Source: an uncultured virus (IMG/VR IMGVR_UViG_3300031134_000641) (lineage: Duplodnaviria; Heunggongvirae; Uroviricota; Caudoviricetes). From it: DNA of 64,000 nucleotides. Position numbers and translations under genes: made by a program. Positions 30,437-48,188 of this stretch are shown piece after piece. The stretch lies in the IMG/VR virus record IMGVR_UViG_3300031134_000641. One strand, 5' to 3'. Within the stretch, counting starts at the first letter, position 1, and each line of letters opens with the position of its first letter. The notes beneath the pieces are model-generated. The model was not told where the DNA came from and ran no database searches. It saw only the letters and a program-made list of their open reading frames with translations.

Positions 30437-30510
30437 AAACAGTCCAAAACTTTTTTAGTAAGTAAGTTGCACCACAGTCAAAAATGTGGTACGGTGTAAA
30501 AACCAGGTAA

Positions 30511-30570
30511 GAGGGATGAAGTGCATTAGGGCACTCAACCGAGTAGCGTTCGACTCGCTACCATCTCACG
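30511..30570 (+). ncRNA. Mini tRNA-like RNA (acceptor-like stem, small hairpin, T-arm)
   Basis: gggatg/catctc; gtgc-attagg-gcac; gtagcg-ttcgact-cgctac. Confidence 0.45.
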
Positions 30571-30649
30571 GAACAAACAGTATCCAACGATTCTAGACCT
30601 TAGGGAATAGAAACAAAACGGTGCATGTTTGCCCAACACAACAAAATAT

Positions 30650-30722
30650 AGGGGTGTCATATAGCGGCCTAGTATGGTGGTCTCCAAAACCACTCACGTG
30701 AGTTCAAATCTCACCACCCCTG
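30650..30722 (+). tRNA. tRNA-Trp(CCA)
   Basis: gtggt-ctCCAaa-accac; cloverleaf. Confidence 0.9.
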
Positions 30723-30983
30723 CGATAACAGAAATGTTACCAAATTTTGCTCCTCCGCTTATGGGGAGTGAACGAATATTGAAAAGTTTATAGAGGAAAC
30801 CATAACCTGGAAACAGGGTAACCAAGAAAGCCGGTGGCTTAACAGCCGAAATCGGTTCCCTCTGGTAACCCTGCCTCCAGGTAACATGTAGAGTTTCATG
30901 GTTGAGGTTGGTAACAACAGCAAAAGCTAGCTACGGTTAGCATTTGAGGTTGAAGTTAACCTCAACCATGGAACACTATATAA

Positions 30984-31060
30984 CAGGGTATGGGAAAGTT
31001 TGGTAATCCGTCATGTTAGGAACGTGAAGACCGCGAGTTCAAATCTCGCTACCCTGACCA
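30984..31060 (+). tRNA. tRNA-Pro(AGG)
   Basis: tcatg-ttAGGaa-cgtga; encoded CCA. Confidence 0.85.
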
Positions 31061-31096
31061 GCATTTAAAAGATTTTGAAAATAAAATCAAATAAAG

Positions 31097-31126
31097 TTGA
31101 CAAGCACAGAAAATGTGTGCTATAGT
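31097..31126 (+). promoter_or_regulatory. Sigma70-type promoter in tRNA cluster
   Basis: TTGACA-18-TATAGT. Confidence 0.7.
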
Positions 31127-31180
31127 AGTAATTAAGAAGCCAAGCAAATAACACAACTTGTTATAGCATGGTTATCCTAC

Positions 31181-31254
31181 CGGGATGTAGGAAAGTTTGG
31201 TAATCCGTTTCGTTTGGGGCGAAAAGATCGCAGGTTCGAATCCTGTCATCCCGA
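31181..31254 (+). tRNA. tRNA-Pro(TGG)
   Basis: tttcg-ttTGGgg-cgaaa. Confidence 0.9.
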
Positions 31255-31408
31255 CAAAAGGTAGCTGAGTAAGCCTGCAAAGGCTAAAAGGCCAGGGGTT
31301 TTGCACCCTCTTACCACCTTGCGCACAAGTGCTCAAAAAGGGTAAGGTACTCTAGACTGAGTAAACTGGGTCTGTTTTTTGTACGAACAGTCACAGGAAG
31401 CAAAGATT

Positions 31409-31481
31409 GTGGATGTAGCTCAGCTGGTAGAGCGCAACCTTGCCAAGGTTGAGGTCGCGGGTTCGAACCCCGTCATCCGCT
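31409..31481 (+). tRNA. tRNA-Gly(GCC)
   Basis: caacc-ttGCCaa-ggttg. Confidence 0.95.
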
Positions 31482-31620
31482 CGGATAGTTGTAAATCCAA
31501 AGTCGGGTACAGGATATTCGGCAGTGTGAGAACAAAACAGGAACCCAGCGCGTATGGACCTGACAAAAAACACATAAGATAACCCGTTGTCCTGCTGTCT
31601 TCACAGTAGGGCTTCGGTTT

Positions 31621-31696
31621 GCGGGTGTAGCTCAATTTCGGTTAGAGCGTCACTCTTCCAAAGTGAAGGTTGCCGGTTCGAAGCCGGTCACCCGCT
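31621..31696 (+). tRNA. tRNA-Gly(TCC)
   Basis: tcact-ctTCCaa-agtga. Confidence 0.9.
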
Positions 31697-31803
31697 CTCA
31701 GAGTAAAGTTGTGGTCACGGAAACCACTCTGCTTTATACAAGCAGGTAGCTTAATCATGCCGAGGGCAGAAAGCATTACTCATTTTCTGGCTGAAAAGCC
31801 TGA

Positions 31804-31879
31804 CTGGATGTGGGGCAGTTGGTAGCCCGCTACTCTCGGACAGTAGAGGTCGTGGGTTCAAATCCCACCATCCAGACCA
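31804..31879 (+). tRNA. tRNA-Pro(CGG)
   Basis: ctact-ctCGGac-agtag; CCA. Confidence 0.9.
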
Positions 31880-31933
31880 TACCGTATGTTGTGCTGCGAC
31901 AGATAACATACAGTAGAAGAGTAAGGAGAAAAC

Positions 31934-32176
31934 ATGAGTGACTATGATAGATACAATCCTGATACTTACGACAGAGATGCTGGGTATGCTTTTTATACTC
32001 TAGGTTTCGTGTTCTTTGTAATAGGAATTGGTAGCATGAATACGTTCTTTTTCTTAGGAATTGCTTTCGCGTTCTTAGCCCATTACTCTTATCTTCCTGT
32101 TGGTGAGTTGCTTAACTTTAAACCTGCCGATAGGAATGATGCAGAAAAGAAAACAGAATCTGACACTGAAGTTTAG
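31934..32176 (+). CDS. Small membrane protein within tRNA cluster
   Basis: SD aaggag; two TMs. Confidence 0.65.
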   Translation: MSDYDRYNPDTYDRDAGYAFYTLGFVFFVIGIGSMNTFFFLGIAFAFLAHYSYLPVGELLNFKPADRNDAEKKTESDTEV

Positions 32177-32188
32177 CGTCAGAAGTAC

Positions 32189-32266
32189 GCCGCCTTAGCT
32201 CAGCCCGGCCAGAGCAGCTGTCTTGTAAACAGCAGGTCATCGGTTCGAATCCGATAGGCGGCTCCA
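32189..32266 (+). tRNA. tRNA-Thr(TGT)
   Basis: gctgt-ctTGTaa-acagc; CCA. Confidence 0.95.
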
Positions 32267-32297
32267 AACAGGTCAAACCCTGTATGAAAAAGTTTAT

Positions 32298-32368
32298 TGC
32301 CCTATAGTGTAACGGCAGCACGAGAGTCTTTGGAACTCTTTGTCTAGGTTCGAATCCTGGTGGGGCAG
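32298..32368 (+). tRNA. tRNA-Gln(TTG)
   Basis: agagt-ctTTGga-actct. Confidence 0.9.
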
Positions 32369-32472
32369 CGAAACAGTAGTTAAGGTTCATGTTGGAGTTA
32401 ACCTTTGAGATTACTGTTGTATCGAAAGTTTGCATTGAGCTTGCGTAGCGAATTCATTGTAACTCCAACTTG

Positions 32473-32561
32473 GGAAGCGTGTCAGAGTCCGGCTTATTGA
32501 GTTAGTCTTGAAAACTAAAGTGGTGTTAAAGCCACCGGGGGTTCGAATCCCTCCGCTTCCG
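32473..32561 (+). tRNA. tRNA-Ser(TGA)
   Basis: ttagt-ctTGAaa-actaa; long variable arm. Confidence 0.95.
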
Positions 32562-32663
32562 CGTAGTAAAGCATGCGTACTATGAATGTGATTGACGCCC
32601 AGCATTGACGGAAACTGATGTAGCTGGTCACACAGTTTTTGTGTGGCAAAAAAATTCATATTA

Positions 32664-32737
32664 GGGGATGTAGCTTAATGGTAAAGCTTCAGTCTTCCAA
32701 ACTGATGACGCGGGTTCGATTCCCGTCATCCCCTCCA
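32664..32737 (+). tRNA. tRNA-Gly(TCC)
   Basis: tcagt-ctTCCaa-actga; CCA. Confidence 0.95.
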
Positions 32738-32885
32738 AAGCCTTTGAACAATCCCTAGCCTGGAAGATTGGTTAGATTGCTTAGGTTACCGTCTTCCTAC
32801 ATAATCTTTTGTGTAGAAAAGGTCTAACGCGACTTGACTTCCTGTTAAGCATGTGTTAGAGTAATATCAACAAGCAACATAATGC

Positions 32886-32957
32886 GCCTTCATAGCTCAA
32901 CGGAAGAGCAAGTGTTTTCTAGGCACCAGGTTGGGGGTTCGAATCCCTCTGGGGGCA
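32886..32957 (+). tRNA. tRNA-Arg(TCT)
   Basis: agtgt-ttTCTag-gcacc, imperfect stem. Confidence 0.7.
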
Positions 32958-32985
32958 CGCAACAATTTAATAAGCAACACAACAT

Positions 32986-33065
32986 GCGGATGTATACCCT
33001 CTCGCTGATAACGAGTTGAAAGGTTAATAGGTTGCACGTGGGTTCAATTCCCACCATCCGCACCA
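32986..33065 (+). ncRNA. Rearranged tRNA-like RNA with GAT anticodon arm, no canonical D-arm, CCA end
   Basis: gcggatg/catccgc-ACCA; ctcg-ctGATaa-cgag; gtggg-ttcaatt-cccac. Confidence 0.75.
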
Positions 33066-33383
33066 CATATTCATTCTCAACCAAAAGATTTTTGGTGACA
33101 GTAAAAGTTCGTTTTGAATGGGTAGCTCACGGTACGCACGGGTGAGCGAATGTCAGCTATAGGCAGGGTGACGCTGGCGCATCGTAACAAAGTTTCTACG
33201 AAAAGCATTTGACTTGAATGTTAACATGTGTTATCGTAGAGTATACGGCGTAATGCTCTCAGAACAAGTGAGAGACAACCGCTACTCTAACTTCAGGTAA
33301 AGCATCACAGCTACAGTATTGTGAAGCGGTGCCTTCCGTAATCAGTCGGACGTATGTTTGCCTACGAAAAAGGTGAACACCAT

Positions 33384-33456
33384 TGCCCCATAGCTCAATT
33401 GGCAGAGCGGCGCACTGTTAATGCGTAGGTTGTAGGTTCGAGTCCTACTGAGGCAG
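33384..33456 (+). tRNA. tRNA-Asn(GTT)
   Basis: gcgca-ctGTTaa-tgcgt. Confidence 0.9.
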
Positions 33457-33540
33457 CGCAACGTAAACATCTTTCGCTTAAAGCTTGACGTGTTTCACGG
33501 GCCTGGGACTATATGCTGCGGCAGTCTTAGGTCAGCACAT

Positions 33541-33613
33541 GGTCCTGTAGCTCAAAGGATAGAGCGCTTCGCTACGAACGAAGAGGTTGGGGGTTCGAGT
33601 CCCTTCAGGACCA
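33541..33613 (+). tRNA. tRNA-Arg(ACG)
   Basis: cttcg-ctACGaa-cgaag. Confidence 0.95.
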
Positions 33614-33745
33614 CGCAAAAAACTGGTTGCCGTACTTTGGAGTGGGTACAGCAAGGGCTTATGCGCCCTACCGTGACCAGTATAAATATGCATGGTTCAA
33701 CCAAAAAAGGTTGAGCTTCACTACAGGTGAAGAAAGCATATATTT

Positions 33746-33819
33746 GCTCGCTTAACTCAGTTGGCTAGAGTGCCACCTTTACACGGTGGAGGTCGGGGGT
33801 TCGAGTCCCTCAGCGAGCA
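33746..33819 (+). tRNA. tRNA-Val(TAC)
   Basis: ccacc-ttTACac-ggtgg. Confidence 0.95.
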
Positions 33820-34012
33820 CGCTCCCATGAAAATGGGAACAGTATTAACCGTTTGCTTATACTTCTAGTCACAACCTAACCACCGTAATGTATCGCGCTG
33901 GTTAGCTGTGTCACAGGAAACTGTGTTTAGAGAACTCTACGGAGGCCGAAAGGTAGAAAGTCACTGAGAACGATACTAACATGGTAAAACATGTTACGGT
34001 TAATGCACATAT

Positions 34013-34084
34013 TGCCCTATAGTGTAACTGGCAACACGAGAGGTTCTGATTCTCTTATTCCTGGTTCGAATCCAGGTAGGGTAG
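34013..34084 (+). tRNA. tRNA-Gln(CTG)
   Basis: agagg-ttCTGat-tctct. Confidence 0.9.
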
Positions 34085-34161
34085 CAAAGCTAGTAGATGA
34101 AAATTTGCTAGCGCCGGAGGACTAGCGGGCTGAAGTTAGGCTTCCCCCTCCGGTTATTTTC

Positions 34162-34210
34162 GGGCGTAGCTGTTGTAGCCGGAAGGTTAGATTCCTTTCT
34201 GCGTCCACCA
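34162..34210 (+). ncRNA. 49-nt minihelix tRNA-like RNA ending ACCA
   Basis: gggcgta/tgcgtcc-ACCA; T-arm gaagg-ttagatt-ccttt; no anticodon arm. Confidence 0.65.
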
Positions 34211-34237
34211 CTTGGAAAGCTGAAAAGTTTTCCGCAT

Positions 34238-34313
34238 GTGACTGTAGGGGAGCCTGGCCGTCCCCGCCACCCTGTCAAGGTGGAGATCGCGGGTTCAAAT
34301 CCCGTCTTTCGCG
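34238..34313 (+). tRNA. tRNA-Asp(GTC), mismatched acceptor stem
   Basis: ccacc-ctGTCaa-ggtgg; gtgactg/ctttcgc. Confidence 0.75.
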
Positions 34314-34366
34314 CTCAGCTTTGCATTGTCAAAGCTTAAACTATGTCAGTGTTTCATCTGACATTT

Positions 34367-34440
34367 GCTCTCTTAACTCAGCTGGCTAGAGTGCCACCTT
34401 TACACGGTGGAGGTCGGGGGTTCAAGTCCCTCAGGGAGCA
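34367..34440 (+). tRNA. tRNA-Val(TAC)
   Basis: ccacc-ttTACac-ggtgg. Confidence 0.95.
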
Positions 34441-34497
34441 CGCAACAAAACAGAAATATGTGATATGGTAAAGTCAGACCAACAGGAAAGGCAAACC

Positions 34498-34980
34498 ATG
34501 ACAACAATTGCTAAAGCTCACCAACGTGAGCTAAAAGCTTGGAAACGTGCAGAGAAGCTAGACACTGCACGAGAGCAACAGAAGCGTAAACGAACACATA
34601 AGGAAGCAGAGTACGAGCTTAACGTAGCCATCCAGCGCGTTAGAGACAACAAAGTTGCTTTCATCAAAATTAAAAACCGCTGGGAAGCGGCAAGAAAAGC
34701 TCAGAAAAAGAATGCAAAAGCAACAATCAGTCATCTAAAAGCAAACAACGCAAGCGGAGAAAAAATTACCGCTGCAAAGGTGGCCGCTAAAGAAGCAGCA
34801 CGGAAACATGATGCTTATGTTAAATCTGAGACTGTACGCATCAAAGAGCTAATTAGTAACATCAAAATTGAATCAAAAGTTGACCGTAGTATCGCGCGAG
34901 AGAGCCTAAGCGTTCCCTTCAAAGTGGTCAACGCAGTACCAGACTGGCTAGCTGTTAGAGTTCCTAGCTTAACCTGGTAA
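34498..34980 (+). CDS. Basic coiled-coil hypothetical protein
   Basis: SD ggaaagg then ATG 34498; Lys/Arg/Ala-rich. Confidence 0.65.
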   Translation: MTTIAKAHQRELKAWKRAEKLDTAREQQKRKRTHKEAEYELNVAIQRVRDNKVAFIKIKNRWEAARKAQKKNAKATISHLKANNASGEKITAAKVAAKEAARKHDAYVKSETVRIKELISNIKIESKVDRSIARESLSVPFKVVNAVPDWLAVRVPSLTW

Positions 34981-35008
34981 AACATAGGAAGCCCTCAGGG
35001 TTTCTTAT

Positions 35009-35083
35009 GCTCACGTATCCCAACTGGCAGAGGAGCTAAGCTCAGACCTTAGTAATGTGTGGGTTCAAATCCCACCGTGAGCA
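35009..35083 (+). tRNA. tRNA-Leu(CAG) with short variable loop
   Basis: ctaag-ctCAGac-cttag. Confidence 0.85.
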
Positions 35084-35085
35084 CT

Positions 35086-35159
35086 GTGGCCGTGGCAGAG
35101 GCGGAAAATGCGACAGTTTGTGGAACTGTTTTGTGCGGGTTCGAACCCCGTCGGTCACC
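35086..35159 (+). tRNA. tRNA-His(GTG)
   Basis: acagt-ttGTGga-actgt; C discriminator. Confidence 0.85.
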
Positions 35160-35164
35160 CGAAA

Positions 35165-35952
35165 GCTTCACTTGTGAAGCTGAACAATAGCGGCATGACG
35201 CTATAAACCATCGCAAGGTGGGGAAAGACCAGTGTGACACCTGGTCGCCGTGTAAGCGGTATCTCATGCAATCTGAAACTGTTAAACGCTCCCGCAACGG
35301 GGTGTTAATGGTGCGAGTTACATGTAAGATCAAGTGAAGGGCAACTGCTATATAACTTGGTAAAGCTAACGGGGCTGTTTACATGCTGCAAGCACCATTT
35401 CAGTAAGGAAGGAATAGTAGTCCAAGCCTGTCAAGCGAGGGCGGATTCCACGAACGGAAAATAGGGAACGCCGGTTTCCTTGCCAGTCCGGGAGATTGCA
35501 ATTAGTGTGACAACGAAAGCATCAGAGGTGTGAAGTATTCTGTGAGTCAAAAACTTACGGAGCTTTGCGGAAAAGCACATCTCTAGTCAAAGATATTAGC
35601 TCAATTGGCAGAGCAACTGTATATGAAACAGTGAGTTGGTGGTTCAATCCCATCATATCATTCAAAGCGAAAGACTTTTCCTGTCACTTCGTGAAAGTGC
35701 CTTAATGCTTGGCCCGTGAGGGAACCAAGCCTCCAAGAAGCCCGCAAGGTGGAATGGAGTTCATGTGAAAGTAGTGCAGCAAAGAGGTTTAGCGGCCCCT
35801 TTGCGAATCAAAATCAGTGGAGAAGCGTGTGACATAAGGAGTAGCATCCCGAAGATGCTAGGCACGGAAGATACAGTGGGGACACTGTGGAAAAGTTGGG
35901 AAACAATAATCCAACTAAAGGCTTCCAACAAAGGGTTTATTCTCAGCCCTTT
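35165..35952 (+). ncRNA. GOLLD-like giant structured ncRNA (~790 nt) with embedded tRNA-like element
   Basis: No credible ORF; GNRA-capped hairpins between tRNA-His and tRNA-Gln; blocks gaggtgtgaagtattc..tcaaaa..cacatctc, gaaagtgccttaat..cccgcaagg and 3' aaggg..ctcagccctt resemble GOLLD as recalled, not aligned. Confidence 0.7.
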
Positions 35953-35955
35953 TAT

Positions 35956-36027
35956 TGCCCTATAGTGTAACTGGCAACACGAGAGGTTCTGATTCTCTTA
36001 TTCCTGGTTCGAATCCAGGTAGGGTAG
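35956..36027 (+). tRNA. tRNA-Gln(CTG), identical to the copy at 34013
   Basis: agagg-ttCTGat-tctct. Confidence 0.9.
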
Positions 36028-36293
36028 CGCAAACCATACTCGCTTGAAGATGCAACTAATCAAGCGAGAGTCACCTGAATGAATAGCATCTTCATTACGA
36101 GGTAACGTGGTAGGTAAGTTAATTCACCGGTCAACCCTTTGCAGGCCGACTGGTGAGGTTGATGTATTCTCTGACAACGGGGCACCGCTCAGGGAACTGA
36201 CCAAAAACTTTCCTACAGCGGTCATAATTTTACCAAAATGAACACGTTTAGTGTCGCACCGAGCGGCGTGAAATAAAAGTCGGTGCACTGTAG

Positions 36294-36376
36294 TCCGGTG
36301 ATGGGAAATTGGCGTCCTAGCAAGCTGTTAACTTGTGGCTGAAATATGCATGTAGGTTCGAATCCTGCCTCCGGAG
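36294..36376 (+). tRNA. tRNA-Asn(GTT) with long variable arm
   Basis: gcaag-ctGTTaa-cttgt; variable region ggctgaaatatgcat. Confidence 0.75.
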
Positions 36377-36511
36377 CAAATAGCGTATTCTAAAAAGTAT
36401 GCTATGATAGGTAGTAACACGACTGGCTGTTCTCCCCGTGAACAGGTTAACACTCCCTGTTTCCATGAAAATGTGAAGAGAGGCAGCCAGTTTTCTTCTC
36501 AAAGGAAAACA

Positions 36512-42176: not shown

Positions 42177-42209
42177 CGGTAACAAAGGTAGGCTCTTCGG
42201 AGTTTATAG

Positions 42210-42285
42210 TGACTGGTAGTTTAACTGGTAAAACGCAAGGCCGTTTTTTACGCCTTGTTTTTAGGTTCAAGTCCTGAACGGTCAG
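42210..42285 (+). ncRNA. tRNA-like RNA with enlarged anticodon loop
   Basis: caaggc-cgttttttac-gccttg; normal D- and T-arms. Confidence 0.6.
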
Positions 42286-42425
42286 CAAAAGGTTTTGATA
42301 CGTTAACCTTGTGTCAGCAAAAAACGTTAGTGGTTGTCCGGCGTTCAGGTTTAGTTGCAAAGCTAGGCGGTGTTCATTGGCTTCCATGATTTCCTATGCA
42401 GGACTGTACAACCTGTTAGGAGTAT

Positions 42426-42495
42426 TCTTTAGTTGAAGCTATGCGGTAGCAAAACACGAACGTGTTCATTCCTGGTTCGAATCCGGGCTAAAGAG
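42426..42495 (+). ncRNA. Anticodon-less tRNA-like RNA (tetraloop arm)
   Basis: tctttag/ctaaaga; aacac-gaac-gtgtt; cctgg-ttcgaat-ccggg. Confidence 0.6.
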
Positions 42496-42613
42496 CTTGT
42501 TAGACAACGAATCTGTCACACAGCGAAAGGCAGCACCTGCCACTACCAGGAGGGTAAGGAGGGGATATTAATCCGCTGTTCGTCTAATAGTTTTTAAACT
42601 GCTTTTGTAGTTT

Positions 42614-42686
42614 GCCTTCTTAGCTCAGTTGGTAGAGCGCATTACTCGTAATAATGAGGTCACCGGTTCGATTCCGGTAGGAGGCT
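42614..42686 (+). tRNA. tRNA-Thr(CGT)
   Basis: catta-ctCGTaa-taatg. Confidence 0.95.
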
Positions 42687-42817
42687 CAGAGGCTCTGTAA
42701 GGAGTCCGAACGCGTTACCCTACAGGTAGACGTTCAAAGCTAAAAAGTGCGTTAAAATGGATTCTGGAGGGGATGAGAGTGGTTTACAAGCAATCTAGTA
42801 GCCGACAGGATTTTAAC

Positions 42818-43162
42818 ATGGGCCGTACACGAGATTATTCGCGGAAACACTACGGTGGCGACGAGCCTCTGGCCCAGTGGGAGCAGGAGCTTCTTATCGC
42901 AGGAGACTCTAACGTGAAGAAATATCTTAACCCTTCTCGTGAAGAGCTAATCAAAGTTATTTGTGAAGCTTTAGCGTACAAAGGAGAATGGTATCACTCT
43001 CAACTTGTCCTACCAGTTTATGCTGACTTCGGTAGCTTAGAAGATAAAGCAGCTGAATTAGGCCCAGGCTATGGTATTCACATAATTCATAGTTACGAGG
43101 AACAAATTCAGCAACCTAAAAAAGGTTATAACCAGAGGGAGACAAATAGAAATGTCATCTGA
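42818..43162 (+). CDS. Hypothetical protein (paralog of next gene)
   Basis: YKGEWYHSQL..GSLEDKAAELG. Confidence 0.65.
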   Translation: MGRTRDYSRKHYGGDEPLAQWEQELLIAGDSNVKKYLNPSREELIKVICEALAYKGEWYHSQLVLPVYADFGSLEDKAAELGPGYGIHIIHSYEEQIQQPKKGYNQRETNRNVI

Positions 43163-43538
43163 AAACAAAAGGCGCGTGTACACTTGTACTCCAGACCATG
43201 AATGTACTCTTGAAGAAATTAGGGATATGATACATGAAAGCCGTAGAATTGATGCAGATGCTTCTGTAGAAGATTTTGGTGAAGCTAGCCAAGAAGACTT
43301 GGCTAAGATAATCCGTAAAGCCCAGCTTTACACTGGCGAGTGGTATCACTCTAAAGCAACGATTTCAAGTCAGTTGGCTAAGACACCTGGAACTTTAGAG
43401 CATCAGGTTGCTCAGCTTGGTGAAGAAAATGGTATTAGCTTGTCCTTCTTTATGGACAGAAGGTTCATGGACAGCAAAGAAACTGCTGAGTATGACGCTC
43501 TGGAAGATAAGTTAGAAAAAATGTTTCAAAAATCTTGA
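43152..43538 (+). CDS. Hypothetical protein (paralog of previous gene)
   Basis: YTGEWYHSKA..GTLEHQVAQLG. Confidence 0.65.
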   Translation: MSSENKRRVYTCTPDHECTLEEIRDMIHESRRIDADASVEDFGEASQEDLAKIIRKAQLYTGEWYHSKATISSQLAKTPGTLEHQVAQLGEENGISLSFFMDRRFMDSKETAEYDALEDKLEKMFQKS

Positions 43539-43617
43539 CTTTGTTGCCGATAGTATGCTATACTAATTATGTTGGCGCAGTTGTTAGCTATATAAAGTCA
43601 ACACAGTAACACAGTTA

Positions 43618-43690
43618 GGCCCCATCGTTTAGCGGCCAAGGACGCTAGGCTTTCATCCTAGTAGCACGGGTTCGAATCCCGTTGGGGTCA
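43618..43690 (+). tRNA. tRNA-Glu(TTC)
   Basis: ctagg-ctTTCat-cctag. Confidence 0.95.
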
Positions 43691-43724
43691 CTTGGAAGAA
43701 ACAAAGTTGTTTCATTCCCATCGA

Positions 43725-43801
43725 CGCGGAGTGGGGAAGTTCGGTATCCCGCTAGGCTCATAACCTAGAGGTCGCAGGTTCAAATCCTGCCTCCGCAACC
43801 A
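43725..43801 (+). tRNA. tRNA-fMet-like (CAT)
   Basis: C1:A72 mismatch; ctagg-ctCATaa-cctag; CCA. Confidence 0.9.
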
Positions 43802-43822
43802 TGTTAGCCAAGAACACAAACT

Positions 43823-43894
43823 TGGTAGGTATATAGTGTATTAGAGCACGCCATCGTGAGATGGAAGCGAAAACTGCGAATGTTTTCTTTACCA
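43823..43894 (+). ncRNA. Anticodon-less tRNA-like RNA (GNRA-capped arm)
   Basis: gtgt-attaga-gcac; ccatc-gtga-gatgg; gaaaac-tgcgaat-gttttc. Confidence 0.55.
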
Positions 43895-43895
43895 C

Positions 43896-43973
43896 TGCGG
43901 AGTAACTGGAGTTCGGTCCCAGTCCAGGCTCATAACCTGGCGTACGTCAGTTCAAATCTGACCTCCGCTTCCA
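43896..43973 (+). tRNA. tRNA-fMet-like (CAT), atypical D-arm
   Basis: U1:U72 mismatch; ccagg-ctCATaa-cctgg; CCA. Confidence 0.8.
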
Positions 43974-44000
43974 CTTCATTAAGGTAACTTAATGATTTTT

Positions 44001-44078
44001 GGCCCGTTAGCTTAGTCGGCTTAAAGCGCCACCCTGTCACGGTGGAGATCGCCGGTTCGAATCCGGTACGGGTCGCCA
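44001..44078 (+). tRNA. tRNA-Asp(GTC)
   Basis: ccacc-ctGTCac-ggtgg; CCA. Confidence 0.95.
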
Positions 44079-44357
44079 AACCCATAAAGCGTTACTGTAG
44101 CGAACATGTCAACTACGGTAACGCTTTTTCTTGAAATACCCTTTCGTTTTTGTTTTGAATACGATAAAGTTGTTTTCTGCATTTGTTTGCAGGATGTGAA
44201 GTCATTCGGCCATGGATTCACGTTTGTGTGGGCTGAAAACATAAAGTTTAAGCCCACACAAAACTTTTCTGGTAAATAGTTTGACTTTCTTCCGATAGTC
44301 TGTTATAGTATAAGTAGTGACAAAGTAACAACAGCAATAAAACTAAATAGTTTCAAT

Positions 44358-44431
44358 GGCCCGTTAGCTCAGTTGGTTAGAGCGCCACCCTGTCACGGTG
44401 GAGGTCGCCGGTTCGAGTCCGGTACGGGTCG
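44358..44431 (+). tRNA. tRNA-Asp(GTC)
   Basis: ccacc-ctGTCac-ggtgg. Confidence 0.95.
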
Positions 44432-44445
44432 CGGTAACAAAATAT

Positions 44446-44519
44446 GGCGATGTGCCCGAGTAGCCAAGGGAACAGTCTGCAAAACTGTACAATCGCGGGT
44501 GCAAGTCCCGTCGTCGCCT
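44446..44519 (+). tRNA. tRNA-Cys(GCA)
   Basis: acagt-ctGCAaa-actgt; U73. Confidence 0.9.
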
Positions 44520-44543
44520 CAAATACAACTGAATATAAACTAT

Positions 44544-44618
44544 GCCGGTGTAGCTCATGATGGTCAGAGCGTCGCACTCATAACGCGGAGGTAGTGGGTT
44601 CGGCTCCCACCACCGGTA
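44544..44618 (+). tRNA. tRNA-Met(CAT)
   Basis: tcgca-ctCATaa-cgcgg. Confidence 0.8.
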
Positions 44619-44641
44619 CAGATAACACAAGTAACACCCAT

Positions 44642-44713
44642 TGGGGTATGGTGTAATTGGCAACACGAGTGATTCTGGTTCATTTGTTCTTGGTTCGAGT
44701 CCAGGTACCCCAG
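44642..44713 (+). tRNA. tRNA-Gln(CTG)
   Basis: agtga-ttCTGgt-tcatt. Confidence 0.95.
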
Positions 44714-44720
44714 CAGATAT

Positions 44721-44797
44721 GCTGCTATAGCTTAGCTTGGTAGAGCGCTATCCTGACACGATAGAGGTCGCAGGTTCAAATCCTGCTAGCAGCACCA
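44721..44797 (+). tRNA. tRNA-Val(GAC)
   Basis: ctatc-ctGACac-gatag; CCA. Confidence 0.95.
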
Positions 44798-44870
44798 AAC
44801 AGAAAACAGTGAACTTATTTGTTCGCTGTTTTCTGTTTTGAGGTACAATAAAATAAGTAACACATGCTAT

Positions 44871-44954
44871 GCTCTTGTGGCGGAATTGGTAGACGCGCTT
44901 GACTCAAAATCAAGTGCCCTTACGGGCGTGTGGGTTCGAGTCCCACCAGGAGTA
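44871..44954 (+). tRNA. tRNA-Leu(CAA)
   Basis: cttga-ctCAAaa-tcaag. Confidence 0.95.
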
Positions 44955-45009
44955 CACAATGACAAAAACAAACATGCAAAAAGTGAGAAAAAAGTAAACA
45001 CTTTACCAG

Positions 45010-45507
45010 GTGACAAAATTTGAAGTTTGGGTTCACCCTCCCTTTGAAGACAATGTCATACATCAAGCCCTCATATTCACAGAGTCAAGCGACCAAGAGT
45101 GGCTTCTCAGTGTAGAGGACGCTGGTATAAGTCAAATGATACCTGAAAGGGAACTCTCCGGGCTTTCTTTTCTCCTGCAAGAAGGTCTCAAAGACTACCA
45201 GGAGCCAACAGATGAAGCTCTCTATGAAGCTGACTCTTGGGCACCTTATGCGACTCGCCTTCCAGGTGTCCGCACCAAAGACGTGTCTGACAGTAAAGTG
45301 TACGAGGTCAACATTCCATGGCCTGAAGAGAAAAGTATAATAGTAGGACAAGAAACTTTTAACCAGATGAGGCTGTATCAGGTCGGAGGAGAATGGTTCC
45401 TGAAATTCCCCTACGGTCCTAAGACACTTCATTTGGAGTATAACGCTCTACCTATGTTGTCTAAGATGGTCACAAAAGTTTTGAAGCACGTTAACAAAAA
45501 CAGTTGA
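45010..45507 (+). CDS. Hypothetical protein
   Basis: 165 aa ORF, possibly two internal repeats. Confidence 0.55.
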   Translation: MTKFEVWVHPPFEDNVIHQALIFTESSDQEWLLSVEDAGISQMIPERELSGLSFLLQEGLKDYQEPTDEALYEADSWAPYATRLPGVRTKDVSDSKVYEVNIPWPEEKSIIVGQETFNQMRLYQVGGEWFLKFPYGPKTLHLEYNALPMLSKMVTKVLKHVNKNS

Positions 45508-45710
45508 GTTTGGCTGGTGAAGAGAGAAACTTCCCGTAAGATTACATGTATACGAAGCATGCCTCGTGTGTGTTGTAGATGTAGTTTCCTGTTGAATGTC
45601 TCCTCTGCTCTCACGGTGTTATCACAGTAAACTCCCCCAGGACGGAAACGTAGCAAGGGTAGCTGTGCTCTAGCAGGTGTGATGGGCAGAGGAGACTTTT
45701 TTGTGCTACA

Positions 45711-46256
45711 ATGGCTCATATGGATACAACCGAGCTTAGAAGCAAAGCCTACAATATTCTCTCTGATACTAGACAGCTGAAAAGTAAGACAGTAAGCATG
45801 CAGAAGATTTGTTCTCATGAGGGCATTAAGGTAATTGACAGCAAAAACTATGACCTTGAAGACTACAATACATTAGGTCGGGTTTCATACACTGGCAAGA
45901 TTTTCCAGATTGTAGTAAACAACACCCTTTCTCCAGTAGAACAAAGGGTGGAAGAAGCTGTACTCTATGCTTACGTTAAACTAAACGGTCACACTCTGGT
46001 AGACCGCTGGGCGAAAGAAAAACTCCCCAACGGAAGAGTTTGGGCTGCTCGTCACAAGCGTGACTCAGAAGAGTGGGAGAGATACACTCTGTTCGCGCAG
46101 TACATTCTCCTAGGATCTTTTATTGGTAAGGAACGCAAGATTGTACAAGATAAGAATGCTCTAAAGCACATACACAAATATGCACACCAGAAGAAAGTAT
46201 CAACAGAGTTCCTGGTGCAGTATCTGACTCGTGAAGCAGCTAAAAAAGTTAACTGA
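45711..46256 (+). CDS. ImmA/IrrE-like fold protein lacking HExxH
   Basis: ICSHEGIKV..IVVNNTLSPVEQR..FAQYILL. Confidence 0.45.
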   Translation: MAHMDTTELRSKAYNILSDTRQLKSKTVSMQKICSHEGIKVIDSKNYDLEDYNTLGRVSYTGKIFQIVVNNTLSPVEQRVEEAVLYAYVKLNGHTLVDRWAKEKLPNGRVWAARHKRDSEEWERYTLFAQYILLGSFIGKERKIVQDKNALKHIHKYAHQKKVSTEFLVQYLTREAAKKVN

Positions 46257-46341
46257 ACTAGCTAATTTAACTTATGCAGATAATCTCTACTGTGAGAATG
46301 AGCGGCATACTCACACAAACAGCAGAGGTATTACAATACAC

Positions 46342-47454
46342 ATGTCTTCAATAACAAAAAACGGCAAAAAAATGGGGCTGACGCTTCTCGCAGCGTCAGC
46401 TTTACTTCTTACAACAACAGTACCAGCATCAGCAGCAACGCCTAAGTTTACGTTAGCAAGCTTAACTGCTTCAGTAAACGGGACAACAGTGACAGCTTCA
46501 ACTACTGTCAAAGCATCAGCAGACACGAAAGTAACAACATTAGGTATATGCGCACGAAACTCAGCTAACGCTGACGTGGACTTTCCAGGTGTCTCAGGGG
46601 CAACAGTAAAAACAGCTGGAACAACGGTAACTAAAACGAAAACTTTACCAGTAGGTACATACAGTTACTTCGCATGTGTTAACTACAACAACACTTGGTA
46701 CAATGTCGGTTCAGCTAAAACATTCACAGTCAAACCAGCTACAGCAGCGTCAACAGCGTTGCCTGAAGGTAACCTACCAGGGTGGACACAGACCTTTAAA
46801 GAGGACTTCAACTCTCCACTCTCAGCTGGAGGATTCCCCGGCTCTTACTCAAACCAGTGGCTTAGCTACACAGGCTTCACCGACACGTTCAAAAACGGTG
46901 ACTACGACCAAAGTATCCTCTCCGTGAAAGACGGTAAACTTAACGCTTACCTCCACACTGGTGCTGACGGCAGACCAAAAACTGCTGCACCAGTTCCTCT
47001 GGTCAACGGTCAATGGGGCGGGCAACAGTATGGCCGCTTTAGCGTGAGAATGAGGACAGGCTCACTGCCTGGCTACAAAACAGCTTTCCTGCTTTGGTCA
47101 GATGAAAACAACTGGAATGATGGAGAAGTTGACTTCCCCGAAGGCCAACTCAACGGGACAGTTAACGGGTTCAACCATTGTGTTGGCAACCCCACACAGA
47201 ACTGTATGGTAGCTGAAACAGGTGCTAAATTCACTGACTGGCACACTTACACAATTGATTGGACCCCAAGTAAGCTGACATACTATGTTGACGGGGTAGC
47301 TGTTGGTTCAACAACTGAGTCCATCCCCACAGCTAAAATGCACTGGGTGATGCAGATTGAAACAGCTGACGGGATGGTTCCATCTAAAACAACGGCAGGT
47401 AACGTAGAAATAGATTGGGCAACAATCTATGCTTACACGCCCACAACAAAATAA
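46342..47454 (+). CDS. Secreted glycoside hydrolase family 16
   Basis: Signal peptide; catalytic GEVDFPEG; YGRFSVRM; WHTYTIDW. Confidence 0.9.
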   Translation: MSSITKNGKKMGLTLLAASALLLTTTVPASAATPKFTLASLTASVNGTTVTASTTVKASADTKVTTLGICARNSANADVDFPGVSGATVKTAGTTVTKTKTLPVGTYSYFACVNYNNTWYNVGSAKTFTVKPATAASTALPEGNLPGWTQTFKEDFNSPLSAGGFPGSYSNQWLSYTGFTDTFKNGDYDQSILSVKDGKLNAYLHTGADGRPKTAAPVPLVNGQWGGQQYGRFSVRMRTGSLPGYKTAFLLWSDENNWNDGEVDFPEGQLNGTVNGFNHCVGNPTQNCMVAETGAKFTDWHTYTIDWTPSKLTYYVDGVAVGSTTESIPTAKMHWVMQIETADGMVPSKTTAGNVEIDWATIYAYTPTTK

Positions 47455-47545
47455 GTCAAAGTTTTTTTAAAAAACGGTTTGACTTAAACCAACTGTTGTG
47501 TTATAGTAGTACTTGTAACAAAGTAATGCTATAACACAACAGTAA

Positions 47546-47618
47546 GGCCCCATCGTTTAGCGGCCAAGGACGCTAGGCTTTCATCCTAGTAGCACGGGTT
47601 CGAATCCCGTTGGGGTCA
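47546..47618 (+). tRNA. tRNA-Glu(TTC), identical to the copy at 43618
   Basis: ctagg-ctTTCat-cctag. Confidence 0.95.
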
Positions 47619-47674
47619 CGCAACAAAAATAAAGTGGACATACCGATAAAAGTATGGTACACTAGAAATAACAT

Positions 47675-47764
47675 GGAAGCGTGGTAGAGCGGCTTATTAC
47701 ACCACCCTGCTAAGGTGGAGTTCCTGAAAGGGGACCGCAGGTTCAAATCCTGTCGCTTCCGCCA
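47675..47764 (+). tRNA. tRNA-Ser(GCT)
   Basis: ccacc-ctGCTaa-ggtgg; CCA. Confidence 0.95.
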
Positions 47765-48009
47765 AACAACTAAATAGCGTAACAATTTTTCTGGCTGATT
47801 CTTCGTAGGGGTATGAAGAACAGGACTCACGACTGCGAAACCCCTCCAGTGTGGTGAGTGCGACTTTCAAGTATGTCGGTCTAAAACTTGTTGCTTACAA
47901 TTGATGAGGCTGTAAGCAGAACTAAAGCTAGTAGCTTCGCGGGTTGATGTATTGAGGTTACCTTCGGGTAACTGAAACTGACGCAAAAGGCAAACGCCAC
48001 TCATCACAT

Positions 48010-48083
48010 GCTCTCTTAACTCAGTTGGCTAGAGTGCCACCTTTACACGGTGGAGGTCGGGGGTTCGAGTCCCTCAGGGAGCA
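48010..48083 (+). tRNA. tRNA-Val(TAC)
   Basis: ccacc-ttTACac-ggtgg. Confidence 0.95.
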
Positions 48084-48188
48084 CCGTGAACGGGTTTGTA
48101 TTCAACAACCAAATTGTTGAATACAAACCCGTTTTGTTTTTGAAAAGCGAGTGCCTAAGTAAAAATGAGCATCTGTTATATATAATGT

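What the first reader, a model, noticed from the sequence alone, without database searches (positions are those of the whole stretch)
30500..48090. RNA super-cluster: ~55 tRNAs interleaved with a dense set of non-tRNA structured RNAs
All 20 amino acids are covered in the window, with duplicates (Ala x4, Val-TAC x3, Gln-CTG x3, Asp x3, Asn x3). Some isoacceptor copies differ mainly in the anticodon arm, for example the two Ala types. Nearly every spacer folds into closed multi-stem units that tRNA processing would release. Established: phage tRNAs can counter host anticodon nucleases. Inference: the locus is a combined translation-rescue and RNA-decoy arsenal (tRNA mimics, an rRNA mimic, GOLLD).
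Basis: partly seen in the sequence, partly recalled or inferred. Interest (0 to 1): 0.75.

Follow-up and report, generated by a model that had tools for sequence, protein, structure and literature searches.

The report
Phage tRNA island with rRNA mimic
A large uncultivated phage carries about sixty tRNA genes in one block, and among them sit several other RNA genes, including a GOLLD RNA and a copy-like imitation of a key ribosomal RNA site that recurs, unannotated, in many other phages.

Summary
The tRNA block is real. ARAGORN finds 58 co-oriented tRNAs in 30650-48085 (37 anticodons, 19 amino acids; Ile lies at 51742), and Rfam supports 56 of them. The block also holds a GOLLD RNA (230 bits, about 35189-35949, with a tRNA in its linker) and a 4.5S-type SRP RNA (45600-45697).

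The "rRNA mimic" is real and is the main result. Window 41530-41655 imitates the uL11-binding GTPase-associated centre (H42-H44) of 23S rRNA. The same element occurs in at least 118 IMG/VR contigs and about ten cultured phages, unannotated, co-oriented with tRNAs (576 same-strand, 0 opposite). Its helices covary strongly. No Rfam family matches it and I found no paper describing it.

The spacers fold better than shuffles (28 of 38 with z < -2; coding controls 4 of 38). However, only GOLLD, the mimic, a ~150-nt cloverleaf-like RNA (39694-39840) and one tRNA-like gene have recognisable homologues in the closest related array. The rest are lineage-specific hairpins, promoters, terminators, tRNA-like remnants and ORFs.

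In three metatranscriptomes the GOLLD contigs reach depth 214-681, against 2-17 for other array contigs.

The "decoy arsenal" reading is plausible for the mimic but is not shown for any element, and it is not supported for most spacers.

The parts
30650..48085 (+). Array of 58 co-oriented tRNA genes covering 37 anticodons and 19 amino acids
   Evidence: ARAGORN. Of the 58, 56 reach the Rfam RF00005 gathering score.
35189..35949 (+). GOLLD RNA: variable 5' domain, a tRNA-like linker (35590-35663, called His-ATG) and the conserved 3' domain (35523-35949)
   Evidence: RF02032 at 230 bits. The block 35189-36020 is 86.6% identical to L055, which has its own GOLLD at 237 bits. RNA-library contigs cover 35198-35886 at depth 214-681 in three runs.
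41530..41655 (+). Mimic of the 23S rRNA GTPase-associated centre. It has a closing helix, an H43-like hairpin (41540-41562), a junction UAAAGAGU, a variable insert of about 50 nt, an H44-like hairpin (GCGUAAUAGC at 41633-41642) and a 3' closing strand.
   Evidence: Model R1 scores it 56.6 bits.
45600..45697 (+). 4.5S-type small SRP RNA gene, lying between two + strand ORFs
   Evidence: RF00169 at 55 bits against a gathering score of 40, full model length 1-97. The GGAA tetraloop and the flanking CAGG/AGCA loop letters are present in the alignment.
39694..39840 (+). Cloverleaf-like RNA of about 150 nt with a closing stem, a short D-like hairpin, two long arms and a T-arm-like hairpin (39819-39835)
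   Evidence: Alignable with L055 10206-10426. Of 70 predicted pairs, 17 change on both sides and stay paired, against 1-3 in slid controls.
32986..33065 (+). Non-canonical tRNA-like gene ending in CCA. It has a 7-bp acceptor stem, no normal D arm, an anticodon-type loop reading GAT, and a T arm.
   Evidence: Rfam tRNA at 35.7 bits. Homologues in L055, L142 and L155 show compensated acceptor, anticodon-stem and T-stem pairs.
37784..37855 (+). tRNA-like gene found by Rfam only
   Evidence: RF00005 at 47 bits. ARAGORN does not call it.
41783..41925 (+). tRNA-like element that ARAGORN calls only when introns are allowed (Ser-GGA with a 47-nt insert). It contains the T-arm-like hairpin at 41900.
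30544..30560 (+). T-arm-like hairpin in a spacer, outside any called tRNA
   Evidence: Nine such hairpins lie on the + strand, all inside the array. There are none elsewhere on the + strand and 3 on the - strand of the whole window.
37131..37147 (+). T-arm-like hairpin in a spacer
40312..40399 (+). Two T-arm-like hairpins (starting at 40312 and 40383) in one spacer
42471..42487 (+). T-arm-like hairpin in a spacer
37298..37598 (+). First pair of tRNA-Ala(TGC) genes, one of each anticodon-stem type
   Evidence: family D3.
39567..39932 (+). Second pair of tRNA-Ala(TGC) genes, same two types in the opposite order, flanking the cloverleaf-like RNA
   Evidence: family D3.
31097..31126 (+). Sigma-70-like promoter site (11 of 12). 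Similar + strand sites lie at 36772, 38292, 38383, 43535, 44281 and 47479.
   Evidence: Of the 9 sites scoring 10 or more out of 12, 7 are on the + strand. The total count is not above shuffles (26 against 20.7, sd 4.7).
44086..44127 (+). Long hairpin followed by a T run (terminator-like), upstream of the promoter-like site at 44281
   Evidence: Fold. The consensus scan missed it, so this reading is by eye.
44798..44837 (+). 17-bp hairpin followed by TTTTG (terminator-like)
   Evidence: Fold, z = -6.1.
48088..48134 (+). Strong terminator-like hairpin directly after the last tRNA of the block
   Evidence: 20 pairs, followed by a T-rich tail.
30805..30981 (+). Two very long hairpins. This is the most stable spacer (z = -9.6, -106.8 kcal/mol over 260 nt). 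It has no homologue.
31934..32176 (+). 80-aa ORF preceded by AGGAG, with a hydrophobic core, inside a spacer
   Evidence: No PHROG family.
34465..34980 (+). 171-aa ORF inside the array, no family match
42773..43538 (+). Two overlapping ORFs (129 and 128 aa) inside the array, no family match
46231..47454 (+). 407-aa ORF with a glycosyl hydrolase family 16 domain, between the SRP RNA and the last three tRNAs
   Evidence: PF00722, E = 5.4e-18.

Best explanation
This is the stable-RNA ("translation") island of a large uncultivated phage. DNA runs labelled plant-surface, plant and straw metagenomes hold it.

Shown:
- About 60 co-oriented tRNA genes stand in one block.
- Between them lie a few discrete, conserved non-tRNA genes: a GOLLD RNA with a tRNA in its linker, a ~125-nt mimic of the uL11-binding GTPase-associated centre (GAC, H42-H44) of 23S rRNA, a 4.5S-type SRP RNA, a ~150-nt cloverleaf-like RNA, and a CCA-ending non-canonical tRNA-like gene.
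- The remaining 100-330-nt spacers are hairpin-rich on the sense strand but specific to this lineage. They hold promoter-like and terminator-like sites, T-arm remnants and small ORFs.

Inferred:
- Several sigma-70-type promoters drive multi-tRNA transcripts, which host RNase P and other processing enzymes cut up.
- The tRNAs keep phage translation running when host tRNAs are scarce or cleaved. Isoacceptor copies that differ only in the anticodon arm serve as nuclease-insensitive spares.
- GOLLD accumulates as an abundant stable RNA. Its class forms 14-mer cages in vitro.
- The GAC mimic folds like the ribosomal site and binds something that normally recognises that site. Host uL11 is the prime candidate, so the RNA would act as a sponge or decoy.
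- Most other spacers act as processing, insulating or termination elements, not as separate effector RNAs.
For: tRNAs:
- 58 by ARAGORN, 56 of them supported by Rfam.

Phage identity:
- A virion structural protein (phrog_1383, E = 1.2e-27), HNH endonuclease, FtsK-like and sigma-like proteins are present, and most ORFs have no family match.
- An independent DNA assembly (X3) covers the array at flat depth 74-95.

GOLLD:
- 230 bits.
- The 5' domain is conserved with L055.
- RNA-library contigs reach depth 214-681, against 2-17 for other array contigs. The DNA run is flat (tables 2 and 8).

GAC mimic:
- The H43-like hairpin matches the LSU consensus 23 of 23.
- The H44-like loop GCGUAAUAGC is identical to Salmonella 23S.
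- It is conserved in L055 while the flanks have diverged.
- There are 121 occurrences, accompanied by 576 same-strand and 0 opposite-strand tRNAs.
- Covariation in the H43 stem: pair 11-33 reads GC 35, UA 25, AU 17, CG 5, other 1. Pair 35-39 reads UA 40, CG 20, AU 3. None of 500 shuffles reaches the observed score.
- 74 of 83 non-redundant copies carry the H44-like module, which was not part of the search pattern.
- The closing helix is 78% paired, against 48% when strands are shuffled between copies. The first two pairs of the helix closing the insert are canonical in 72 of 73 copies.

Spacers:
- L055's own spacers behave the same way: mean z -2.58, 15 of 22 below -2.
- The two arrays nevertheless share almost no spacer sequence.

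Literature:
- Huge phages encode up to 67 tRNAs (PMC7162821, passages).
- GOLLD lies near tRNA islands, sometimes carries tRNAs in its linker, and forms a 14-mer cage (bioRxiv 10.1101/2024.12.08.627333, passages).
- Phage tRNAs are proposed to be insensitive to anticodon nucleases (PMC10264068, abstract).
Against: - No experiment bears on any function.
- Only one independent related array (L055; L007 and L057 are near-identical to it) was available for spacer conservation. Faster-evolving functional RNAs could therefore be missed.
- The RNA evidence comes from assembled contigs. It shows no strand and no ends, and gives only a rough level.
- The promoter and terminator scans are not enriched over shuffles (26 against 20.7, sd 4.7; 24 against 18.3, sd 4.0).
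- The window's GAC-mimic copy is imperfect. It lacks one base in the outer H43 stem, which gives a U-U mismatch, and two of the nine closing-helix pairs do not pair.
- The mimic is a four-way junction with an inserted domain, not the ribosomal three-way junction, so binding of uL11 is not assured.
- No conserved protein neighbour points to a partner.
Confidence: 0.8

Rival explanations
1. One reading: the whole locus is a translation-rescue and RNA-decoy arsenal. Nearly every spacer is released by tRNA processing as a functional decoy RNA (tRNA mimics, an rRNA mimic, GOLLD) that soaks up host defence nucleases.
For: - The spacers are more stable than shuffles on the sense strand.
- Nine T-arm-like hairpins lie in spacers, all within the array.
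- A real rRNA-site mimic and tRNA-like genes exist.
- RNA-library contigs cover several spacers at low depth, 2-17.
Against: - With tRNAs masked, only 6 short or long stretches of 17.7 kb match the closest related array.
- Only 2 elements match 118 other phage loci.
- No spacer has a paralogue in the window.
- Three of the five most stable spacers look like a terminator followed by a promoter.
- Outside GOLLD, no spacer contig stands out in RNA depth.
- No decoy activity is shown for any element.
Confidence: 0.2
2. The non-tRNA elements are inert by-products. The spacers are decayed tRNA duplicates plus processing hairpins, and the rRNA-like piece is a captured fragment of host 23S rDNA with no function of its own.
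For: - T-arm remnants occur in spacers.
- The spacers are lineage-specific.
- The window's mimic copy has mismatches.
Against: - A captured fragment would not show compensatory changes in four helices across 73-83 non-redundant phage copies. It would not keep an H44-like loop across an insert that varies from about 20 to about 340 nt. It would not always point the same way as the tRNAs.
- The flanks of the mimic are unrelated to rRNA. None of the 20 loci scanned has an LSU match at Rfam's gathering score.
Confidence: 0.1
3. The block is a cellular (bacterial) tRNA island or an assembly chimera, not a phage feature.
For: - No whole genome is held for the window.
- An SRP RNA and an Hsp70 gene are normally cellular genes.
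- Many tRNA-Ala look-alikes from the metagenome scan lie on bacterial-size contigs.
Against: - The window carries a virion structural protein, HNH endonuclease and other PHROG matches.
- Most ORFs have no family match.
- The related array L055 has the same GOLLD and GAC-mimic content.
- Contigs of an independent DNA run (X3) cover long stretches at about 99% identity, for example 39904-43646 with 9 differences.
Confidence: 0.05

Closest known systems
tRNA arrays of huge or jumbo phages (Al-Shayeb et al. 2020, PMC7162821; passages read)
   Same: Dozens of phage-encoded tRNAs in one genome, up to 67 reported. They sit in a phage whose proteins mostly match no family, next to other translation-related genes.
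   Different: The spacers here are unusually long (38 spacers of 73-362 nt). The block also holds GOLLD, a GAC mimic, an SRP RNA and tRNA-like genes. That paper's text does not contain "signal recognition particle" (listing).
GOLLD RNA (Rfam RF02032; Kretsch et al., bioRxiv 10.1101/2024.12.08.627333, passages read)
   Same: A full-length match, a position among phage tRNAs, and a tRNA in the linker between a variable 5' and a conserved 3' domain.
   Different: Nothing structural. New here are its abundance in plant-surface metatranscriptome contigs and its company with a GAC mimic.
rRNA-mimicking leaders of ribosomal-protein operons, such as the L10 leader (recalled; compare PMC3616713, seen in a search listing only)
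   Same: An RNA outside the ribosome copies an rRNA protein-binding site.
   Different: Those leaders are cis-acting 5' UTRs of ribosomal-protein genes. This element stands alone among tRNAs. None of the 70 flanking ORFs scanned is a ribosomal protein, and none of 5 phage records encodes uL11.
The GTPase-associated centre of 23S rRNA (H42-H44), the binding site of uL11 and thiostrepton (PMC1802607 and PMC1919483, search listings only; function recalled)
   Same: The H43 hairpin and loop are identical, the H44 loop GCGUAAUAGC is identical, and the junction letters UAAAGA and a closing helix are shared.
   Different: It is isolated from any rRNA gene. A variable domain of about 20 to 340 nt is inserted between the junction and H44, which makes a four-way junction.
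[quoted passage not shown] 2023, PMC10264068, abstract read; Azam et al. 2024, PMC11555353, listing only)
   Same: Isoacceptor copies differ in the anticodon arm only (the two Ala types).
   Different: The differences here lie mostly in the anticodon stem (three compensated pairs) plus position 38. No host or nuclease is known for this phage.
The small stable RNAs encoded within the phage T4 tRNA gene cluster
   Same: Non-tRNA stable RNAs of unknown function are co-transcribed with phage tRNAs.
   Different: No sequence relation was tested. The scale here is far larger.

Membership tests
GOLLD RNA (RF02032) | Covariance-model score at or above the curated gathering score over the full model | tested here: met
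   230 bits against 150, model positions 1-416 of 416.
GOLLD RNA (RF02032) | A less conserved 5' domain precedes the conserved 3' domain, for a total of about 800 nt, often with a tRNA in the linker | tested here: met
   The block 35189-35589 is 85.5% identical to L055, upstream of the Rfam match. A tRNA-like gene sits at 35590-35663. The feature is as described in the Kretsch et al. passages.
GOLLD RNA (RF02032) | Located in phages or prophages near tRNA islands | tested here: met
GOLLD RNA (RF02032) | Self-assembly into a 14-mer cage | not testable with these tools
   Known from cryo-EM of another member.
tRNA (RF00005) | Cloverleaf scored at or above the gathering score | tested here: met
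   56 of the 58 ARAGORN calls, plus 2 found by Rfam only.
Bacterial small SRP RNA (RF00169) | Score at or above the gathering score, with the domain IV GGAA tetraloop and flanking conserved loops | tested here: met
   55 bits against 40, model 1-97 of 97. GGAA, CAGG and AGCA are present.
Bacterial small SRP RNA (RF00169) | Works together with an Ffh protein | not tested
   None of the 54 window ORFs scanned against Pfam or PHROGs is an SRP54-type protein. The rest of the genome is not held.
23S rRNA GTPase-associated centre (H42-H44) | H43 hairpin with its 9-nt loop | tested here: met
   23 of 23 to the LSU consensus. The loop is invariant in the other copies by construction, because the search pattern covered it.
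23S rRNA GTPase-associated centre (H42-H44) | H44 hairpin with a GUAAUA-type loop | tested here: met
   GCGUAAUAGC is identical to Salmonella 23S. 74 of 83 non-redundant copies have GCGU-NNNN-GC, which was not part of the search pattern.
23S rRNA GTPase-associated centre (H42-H44) | Covarying pair across the junction turn (the position I recall as U1082-A1086 in E. coli numbering) | tested here: met
   UA 40, CG 20, AU 3, other 10. The link to the ribosomal pair rests on recalled numbering.
23S rRNA GTPase-associated centre (H42-H44) | Three-way junction embedded in a 23S rRNA gene | tested here: not met
   It is a four-way junction with a variable insert. None of the 20 loci scanned has an LSU match at the gathering score. 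The flanks are tRNAs or phage ORFs.
Ribosomal-protein leader (autogenous rRNA mimic) | Lies in the 5' UTR of a ribosomal-protein gene | tested here: not met
   None of the 70 flanking ORFs scanned is a ribosomal protein (70 of 101 candidates were passed). uL11 (PF00298) is found in 0 of 5 phage records, with 14 of 14 control genomes positive.
Group I intron in LSU rDNA (considered for the insert) | Rfam Intron_gpI match and an insert of at least about 200 nt | tested here: not met
   No such Rfam match in the window at E up to 1, nor in the 20 loci at the gathering score. The distance from H43 to H44 is as short as 39 nt.

The most novel reading that the evidence does not exclude
The GAC-mimic element is a previously undescribed, widespread class of phage non-coding RNA. 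It is a free-standing imitation of the ribosome's uL11/thiostrepton-binding GTPase-associated centre, expressed from tRNA islands. It titrates host uL11 or another factor that docks on that site, such as a translational GTPase, the stringent factor, or a ribosome-targeting defence toxin. In that way it would reprogram or protect translation during infection.
Probability: 0.4. Interest if true: 0.9.

Novelty: new variant of a known kind. Interest (0 to 1): 0.8.

Why it matters
Large tRNA blocks and GOLLD in big phages are known, so the block itself is a new member of a known kind.

The new element came out of checking the "rRNA mimic" remark. It is a strongly covarying RNA that copies both loops of the ribosomal GTPase-associated centre. 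It sits unannotated in tRNA islands of many uncultivated phages and of cultured phages, including jumbo phages such as XacN1, CBB and GAP32 and smaller ones such as pf16.

If it binds uL11 or another factor that reads this site, it would be the first stand-alone rRNA-site decoy of a virus. It would also give a direct handle on how phages tamper with the ribosome's factor-binding stalk and possibly with the stringent response.

The idea is immediately testable in cultured, harmless host-phage pairs. The locus further links GOLLD, an abundant cage-forming RNA of unknown function, with a ribosome-site mimic and an SRP RNA in a single island.

Tried and rejected
Searches for relatives:
- Protein-based searches in IMG/VR with two ORFs from inside the array found none.
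- The 28-nt tRNA-Ala pattern in IMG/VR gave one unrelated locus with 2 tRNAs.
- megablast and blastn of the array and of GOLLD against the phage collection matched only single tRNAs.
- A tblastn with the phrog_2087 protein gave only distant Aeromonas phage hits.
- No earlier notes of this scan exist for this place or sequence.
- No whole genome is held for the window.

Technical:
It was re-run with 20 shuffles.

SRP RNA:
- No homologue in the phage collection.
- No SRP RNA at the gathering score in the 24 other phage loci scanned.
- RNA-library contigs give next to no cover over 45250-45843 (0-1.3). This says nothing either way.
- No paper on a phage-encoded full-length SRP RNA appeared in two searches. 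One paper describes a phage attachment site inside ffs (PMC12540744, listing only). An att-site remnant is unlikely here because the full model length is matched.

GAC mimic:
- No conserved protein neighbour among 70 flanking ORFs. Individual neighbours include a CCA-adding enzyme, PNKP phosphatase, RNase T, homing endonucleases, and a 2'-5' RNA ligase in XacN1.
- No phage-encoded uL11 in 5 records.
- No second copy in the window or in 99 metagenome loci with model R1.
- A group I intron as the explanation for the insert was rejected (no Rfam match; inserts too short).

Other points:
- Promoter and terminator consensus counts are not above shuffles.
- I did not over-read contig ends at tRNA borders as processing sites. 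Assemblies break at tRNA sequences that are shared between organisms.

Full report
**1. The observation**

ARAGORN finds 62 tRNA genes in the window, all on the + strand. Of these, 58 lie in 30650-48085. Rfam's tRNA model reaches its gathering score for 56 of the 58. The exceptions are 39226-39319 and 41218-41289. Rfam adds two further hits, 37784-37855 (47 bits) and 32986-33062 (35.7 bits).

The 58 genes carry 37 different anticodons for 19 amino acids. Isoleucine is supplied by a TAT tRNA at 51742, outside the given coordinates.

The four tRNA-Ala(TGC) genes fall into two types. The types differ by three compensated anticodon-stem pairs and position 38. One copy also has a T-loop change (family D3).

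Rfam also finds a full-length GOLLD RNA (35523-35949, 230 bits against 150). Its match encloses the tRNA-like gene at 35590-35663. A bacterial small SRP RNA lies at 45600-45697 (55 bits against 40). Its alignment shows the GGAA tetraloop and the flanking conserved loop letters.

**2. Context**

No whole genome is held for the window. The window encodes:
- a virion structural protein (phrog_1383, E = 1.2e-27),
- an HNH endonuclease,
- an FtsK-like ATPase,
- a sigma-like protein,
- an intein-bearing nuclease,
- an Hsp70.

Most ORFs match nothing. This is the profile of a large phage.

The array is held by 20 public runs from 17 studies. Eight DNA runs labelled phyllosphere, plant or straw metagenome hold 59-93% of the sampled words. 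One of them (X3) was laid on the array. It covers it at flat depth with contigs about 99% identical, for example 39904-43646 with 9 differences. The block is therefore not an assembly artefact.

**3. Are the spacers structured?**

There are 38 spacers of 73-362 nt, 7.6 kb in all. Against 20 dinucleotide-preserving shuffles each:

| Set | Mean z | z < -2 | z < -3 |
|---|---|---|---|
| Sense strand | -3.16 | 28 of 38 | 18 of 38 |
| Reverse complement | -1.89 | 13 of 38 | 9 of 38 |
| Length-matched coding controls from the window | -0.07 | 4 of 38 | 0 of 38 |

The tests give Mann-Whitney p = 6e-11 for sense against coding, and Wilcoxon p = 6e-7 for sense against antisense. The excess structure is real and strand-specific, but "nearly every" spacer overstates it.

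**4. Are the spacers conserved?**

A metagenome scan with a tRNA-Ala pattern recovered one truly related array, L055. It has 43 tRNAs, and L007 and L057 are near-identical pieces of it. The scan also recovered a more distant array, L024.

With tRNAs masked, only these window stretches match L055:
- GOLLD (35189-35589 and 35665-35951, 86-89% identity),
- 39642-39754 (74%),
- 41541-41571 (94%),
- three short stretches at 34184-34210, 32984-33051 and 47497-47526.

No spacer resembles another spacer in the window. L055's own spacers are just as structured (mean z -2.58, 15 of 22 below -2). Hairpin-richness is therefore a shared property, while the sequences turn over.

Three of the five most stable window spacers (38261-38587, 44079-44357, 44798-44870) contain a long hairpin with a T run, followed by a TTGACW-17/18-TATAGT site. 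That is the ordinary reading of a terminator followed by a promoter. The consensus scans as a whole are not enriched over shuffles.

Nine T-arm-like hairpins lie outside called tRNAs on the + strand, all within the array. There are none elsewhere on that strand and three on the - strand of the whole window. These look like tRNA-like genes or remnants.

Eight ORFs, one with a GH16 domain, also sit in the block.

**5. GOLLD**

The conserved block begins at 35189, so the 362-nt "spacer" before the Rfam match is the variable 5' domain of GOLLD. The layout matches published descriptions: a 5' domain, a tRNA in the linker, a conserved 3' domain, all among phage tRNAs (passages of bioRxiv 10.1101/2024.12.08.627333).

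In three metatranscriptomic runs from three studies, contigs with 0-4 differences cover 35198-35886:

| Run | GOLLD contig depths |
|---|---|
| X14 | 680.9 and 441.7 |
| X16 | 335.7 and 213.6 |
| X17 | 487.3 and 347.7 |

The other array contigs listed for the same runs have depth 2-17, and the DNA run is flat at 74-95 (tables 2 and 8). Contig depth is a rough measure and shows neither strand nor ends. Still, the contrast is 20-fold to over 100-fold and repeats in all three runs. One RNA contig (35494-35886) runs across the embedded tRNA.

**6. The rRNA mimic**

*In the window.* Window 41540-41562 matches the bacterial LSU consensus hairpin 23 of 23 (Rfam model positions 1099-1121). Rfam's own E-value for this short local hit is weak (0.05-0.15).

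An 18-nt core of the hairpin is unique in the window, with 0.04 matches expected at up to 3 mismatches. It is conserved in L055 while the flanks are unalignable.

In a first pass, 109 of 119 occurrences had fewer than three long-matching neighbours among the loci, so they did not sit in a shared, rRNA-like context. None of the 20 loci scanned by Rfam has an LSU match at the gathering score or any family at the motif. One has a ROOL RNA nearby.

*Link to tRNAs.* Across the 121 occurrences:
- 64 of the 83 loci of at least 3 kb carry same-strand tRNAs;
- there are 576 same-strand and 0 opposite-strand tRNAs;
- 32 occurrences have a tRNA 3' end within 100 nt upstream.

*Covariation in the H43 stem.* On 83 non-redundant copies, the outer H43 stem covaries. 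Pair 11-33 reads GC 35, UA 25, AU 17, CG 5, other 1. Pair 10-34 reads AU 60, CG 7, GC 4, UA 1, other 11. A pair across the junction turn reads UA 40, CG 20, AU 3, other 10. None of 500 shuffles reaches the observed score, and the slid controls are far lower.

*The full element.* Reading on to the next tRNA revealed the rest of the element. After the junction UAAAGAGU comes a variable insert, closed by its own helix. Then comes YUUUG-GCGUAAUAGC-ACA, and then a strand complementary to the 5' flank.

- 74 of 83 copies have this 3' module, although it was not part of the search pattern.
- Its loop sequence is identical to the H44 loop region of Salmonella 23S rRNA.
- The closing helix of about 8 bp is 78% paired, against 48% (maximum 52%) when strands are shuffled between copies, with all four Watson-Crick types at most positions.
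- The first two pairs of the insert-closing helix are canonical in 72 of 73 copies.

The element is thus a four-way junction. It keeps both factor-binding loops of the ribosomal H42-H44 domain and adds one variable arm.

*Cultured phages.* The 5' module is also present, unannotated, in:
- Aeromonas phage 4_4572,
- Paenibacillus phage Pd_22F,
- Pectobacterium phage CBB,
- Pseudomonas phages pf16, UNO-G1W1, Milchi and Astolliot,
- Cronobacter phage GAP32,
- a Vibrio phage,
- Xanthomonas phage XacN1.

In XacN1 it lies in an intergenic region after a 2'-5' RNA ligase gene. In Aeromonas phage 4_4572 it lies upstream of a tRNA-Met gene.

*The window copy.* It spans about 41530-41655. Model R1 scores it 56.6 bits, and L055's copy 65 bits. 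No further copy was found in the window or in 99 metagenome loci. The window copy lacks one base in the outer H43 stem, and two of its nine closing-helix pairs do not pair, so it is a somewhat degraded member. RNA-library contigs from two studies cover its spacer at depth 8-9.

*Is it already known?* I found no description of this element. Four full-text searches gave nothing relevant. Three papers on structured RNAs or jumbo phages do not mention it: PMC5737381 has no "23S", "L11" or "rRNA", and the same holds for PMC7824862 and PMC8040213. The library lacks most subscription journals, and I did not read the supplements of these papers, so a prior report cannot be excluded.

**7. Other conserved elements**

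The spacer between the second pair of Ala genes aligns with L055 over its whole length. It folds into a cloverleaf-like shape that ends in a T-arm-like hairpin (39694-39840). Of 70 predicted pairs, 17 change on both sides and stay paired, against 1-3 in slid controls. The caveat is that only two independent lineages were available and the structure was derived from the same alignment.

The Rfam-only hit at 32986-33065 belongs to a small family with members in L055, L142 and L155. The family has a 7-bp acceptor stem, a conserved replacement of the D arm, a covarying anticodon-type stem and a T arm. In the three copies that reach that far it ends in CCA. The window copy reads GAT in the loop, and the others read ACG.

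**8. Mechanism**

The best-supported reading is a phage stable-RNA island.

*tRNAs.* Their role in sustaining translation, and the value of anticodon-arm variants against tRNA nucleases, are inferred from published work, not shown here.

*GAC mimic.* I propose that it binds a ligand of the ribosomal site, with host uL11 first in line. Three points support this:
- Both loops and a junction pair of that site are kept under selection.
- The five phage records tested encode no uL11 of their own.
- No ribosomal-protein gene lies beside it, which argues against a cis-regulatory leader.

What binding would achieve is open. It could deplete uL11 and so blunt the stringent response, capture a GTPase or a toxin, or recruit an enzyme.

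**9. Verdict**

- The tRNA block and GOLLD are new members of known kinds.
- The phage-encoded SRP RNA is unusual.
- The GAC mimic appears to be an undescribed, widespread RNA class and carries most of the interest.

Noticed in passing
window 45600-45697: A full-length 4.5S-type SRP RNA gene sits inside a phage tRNA island. None was found in the 24 other phage loci scanned or in the phage collection, and two literature searches gave no report of a phage-encoded SRP RNA.
   Followed up: partly
L024 2945-3017 and 13037-13109: A 788,683-bp metagenome contig with a related tRNA island carries two tRNAs with anticodon CTA (amber suppressors). This hints at stop-codon recoding in that element.
   Followed up: no
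L055 10566-10690 (also L007 2936-3060 and L057 2848-2972): Rfam tRNA hits of 125 nt (46-48 bits) that ARAGORN does not call. They look like tRNA-like genes with an insertion of about 50 nt in the related array.
   Followed up: no
L135 3916-4499 (-): A ROOL RNA (328 bits) lies about 900 nt upstream of a GAC-mimic copy in the same tRNA island. The mimic thus keeps company with either of the two cage-forming RNAs, GOLLD here and ROOL there.
   Followed up: no
window 7573-9447: A nuclease- or terminase-like ORF interrupted by an intein (PF14890, E = 3e-10).
   Followed up: no
window 51742-53028: tRNA-Ile(TAT) is followed directly by an HNH homing-endonuclease gene. Three more tRNAs (Arg-CCT, Arg-TCG, Gly-GCC) are scattered downstream to 60841.
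   Followed up: no
window 37817/37818: The strain in DNA run X3 has 59 other letters at this point and several 1-3-nt indels in spacers. Spacers vary between strains that are otherwise about 99% identical.
   Followed up: no
L126 2987-3034 and L013 4281-4335: Variant forms of the mimic. L126 has the H44-like loop directly after the junction, with no insert. L013 gives a weak R1 hit (E = 0.82) with a different, longer hairpin in place of H43.
   Followed up: no
window 30805-30981: Two very long near-perfect hairpins directly upstream of tRNA-Pro(AGG). This is the most stable spacer (z = -9.6) and it has no homologue. RNase III-type processing sites are a guess.
   Followed up: no
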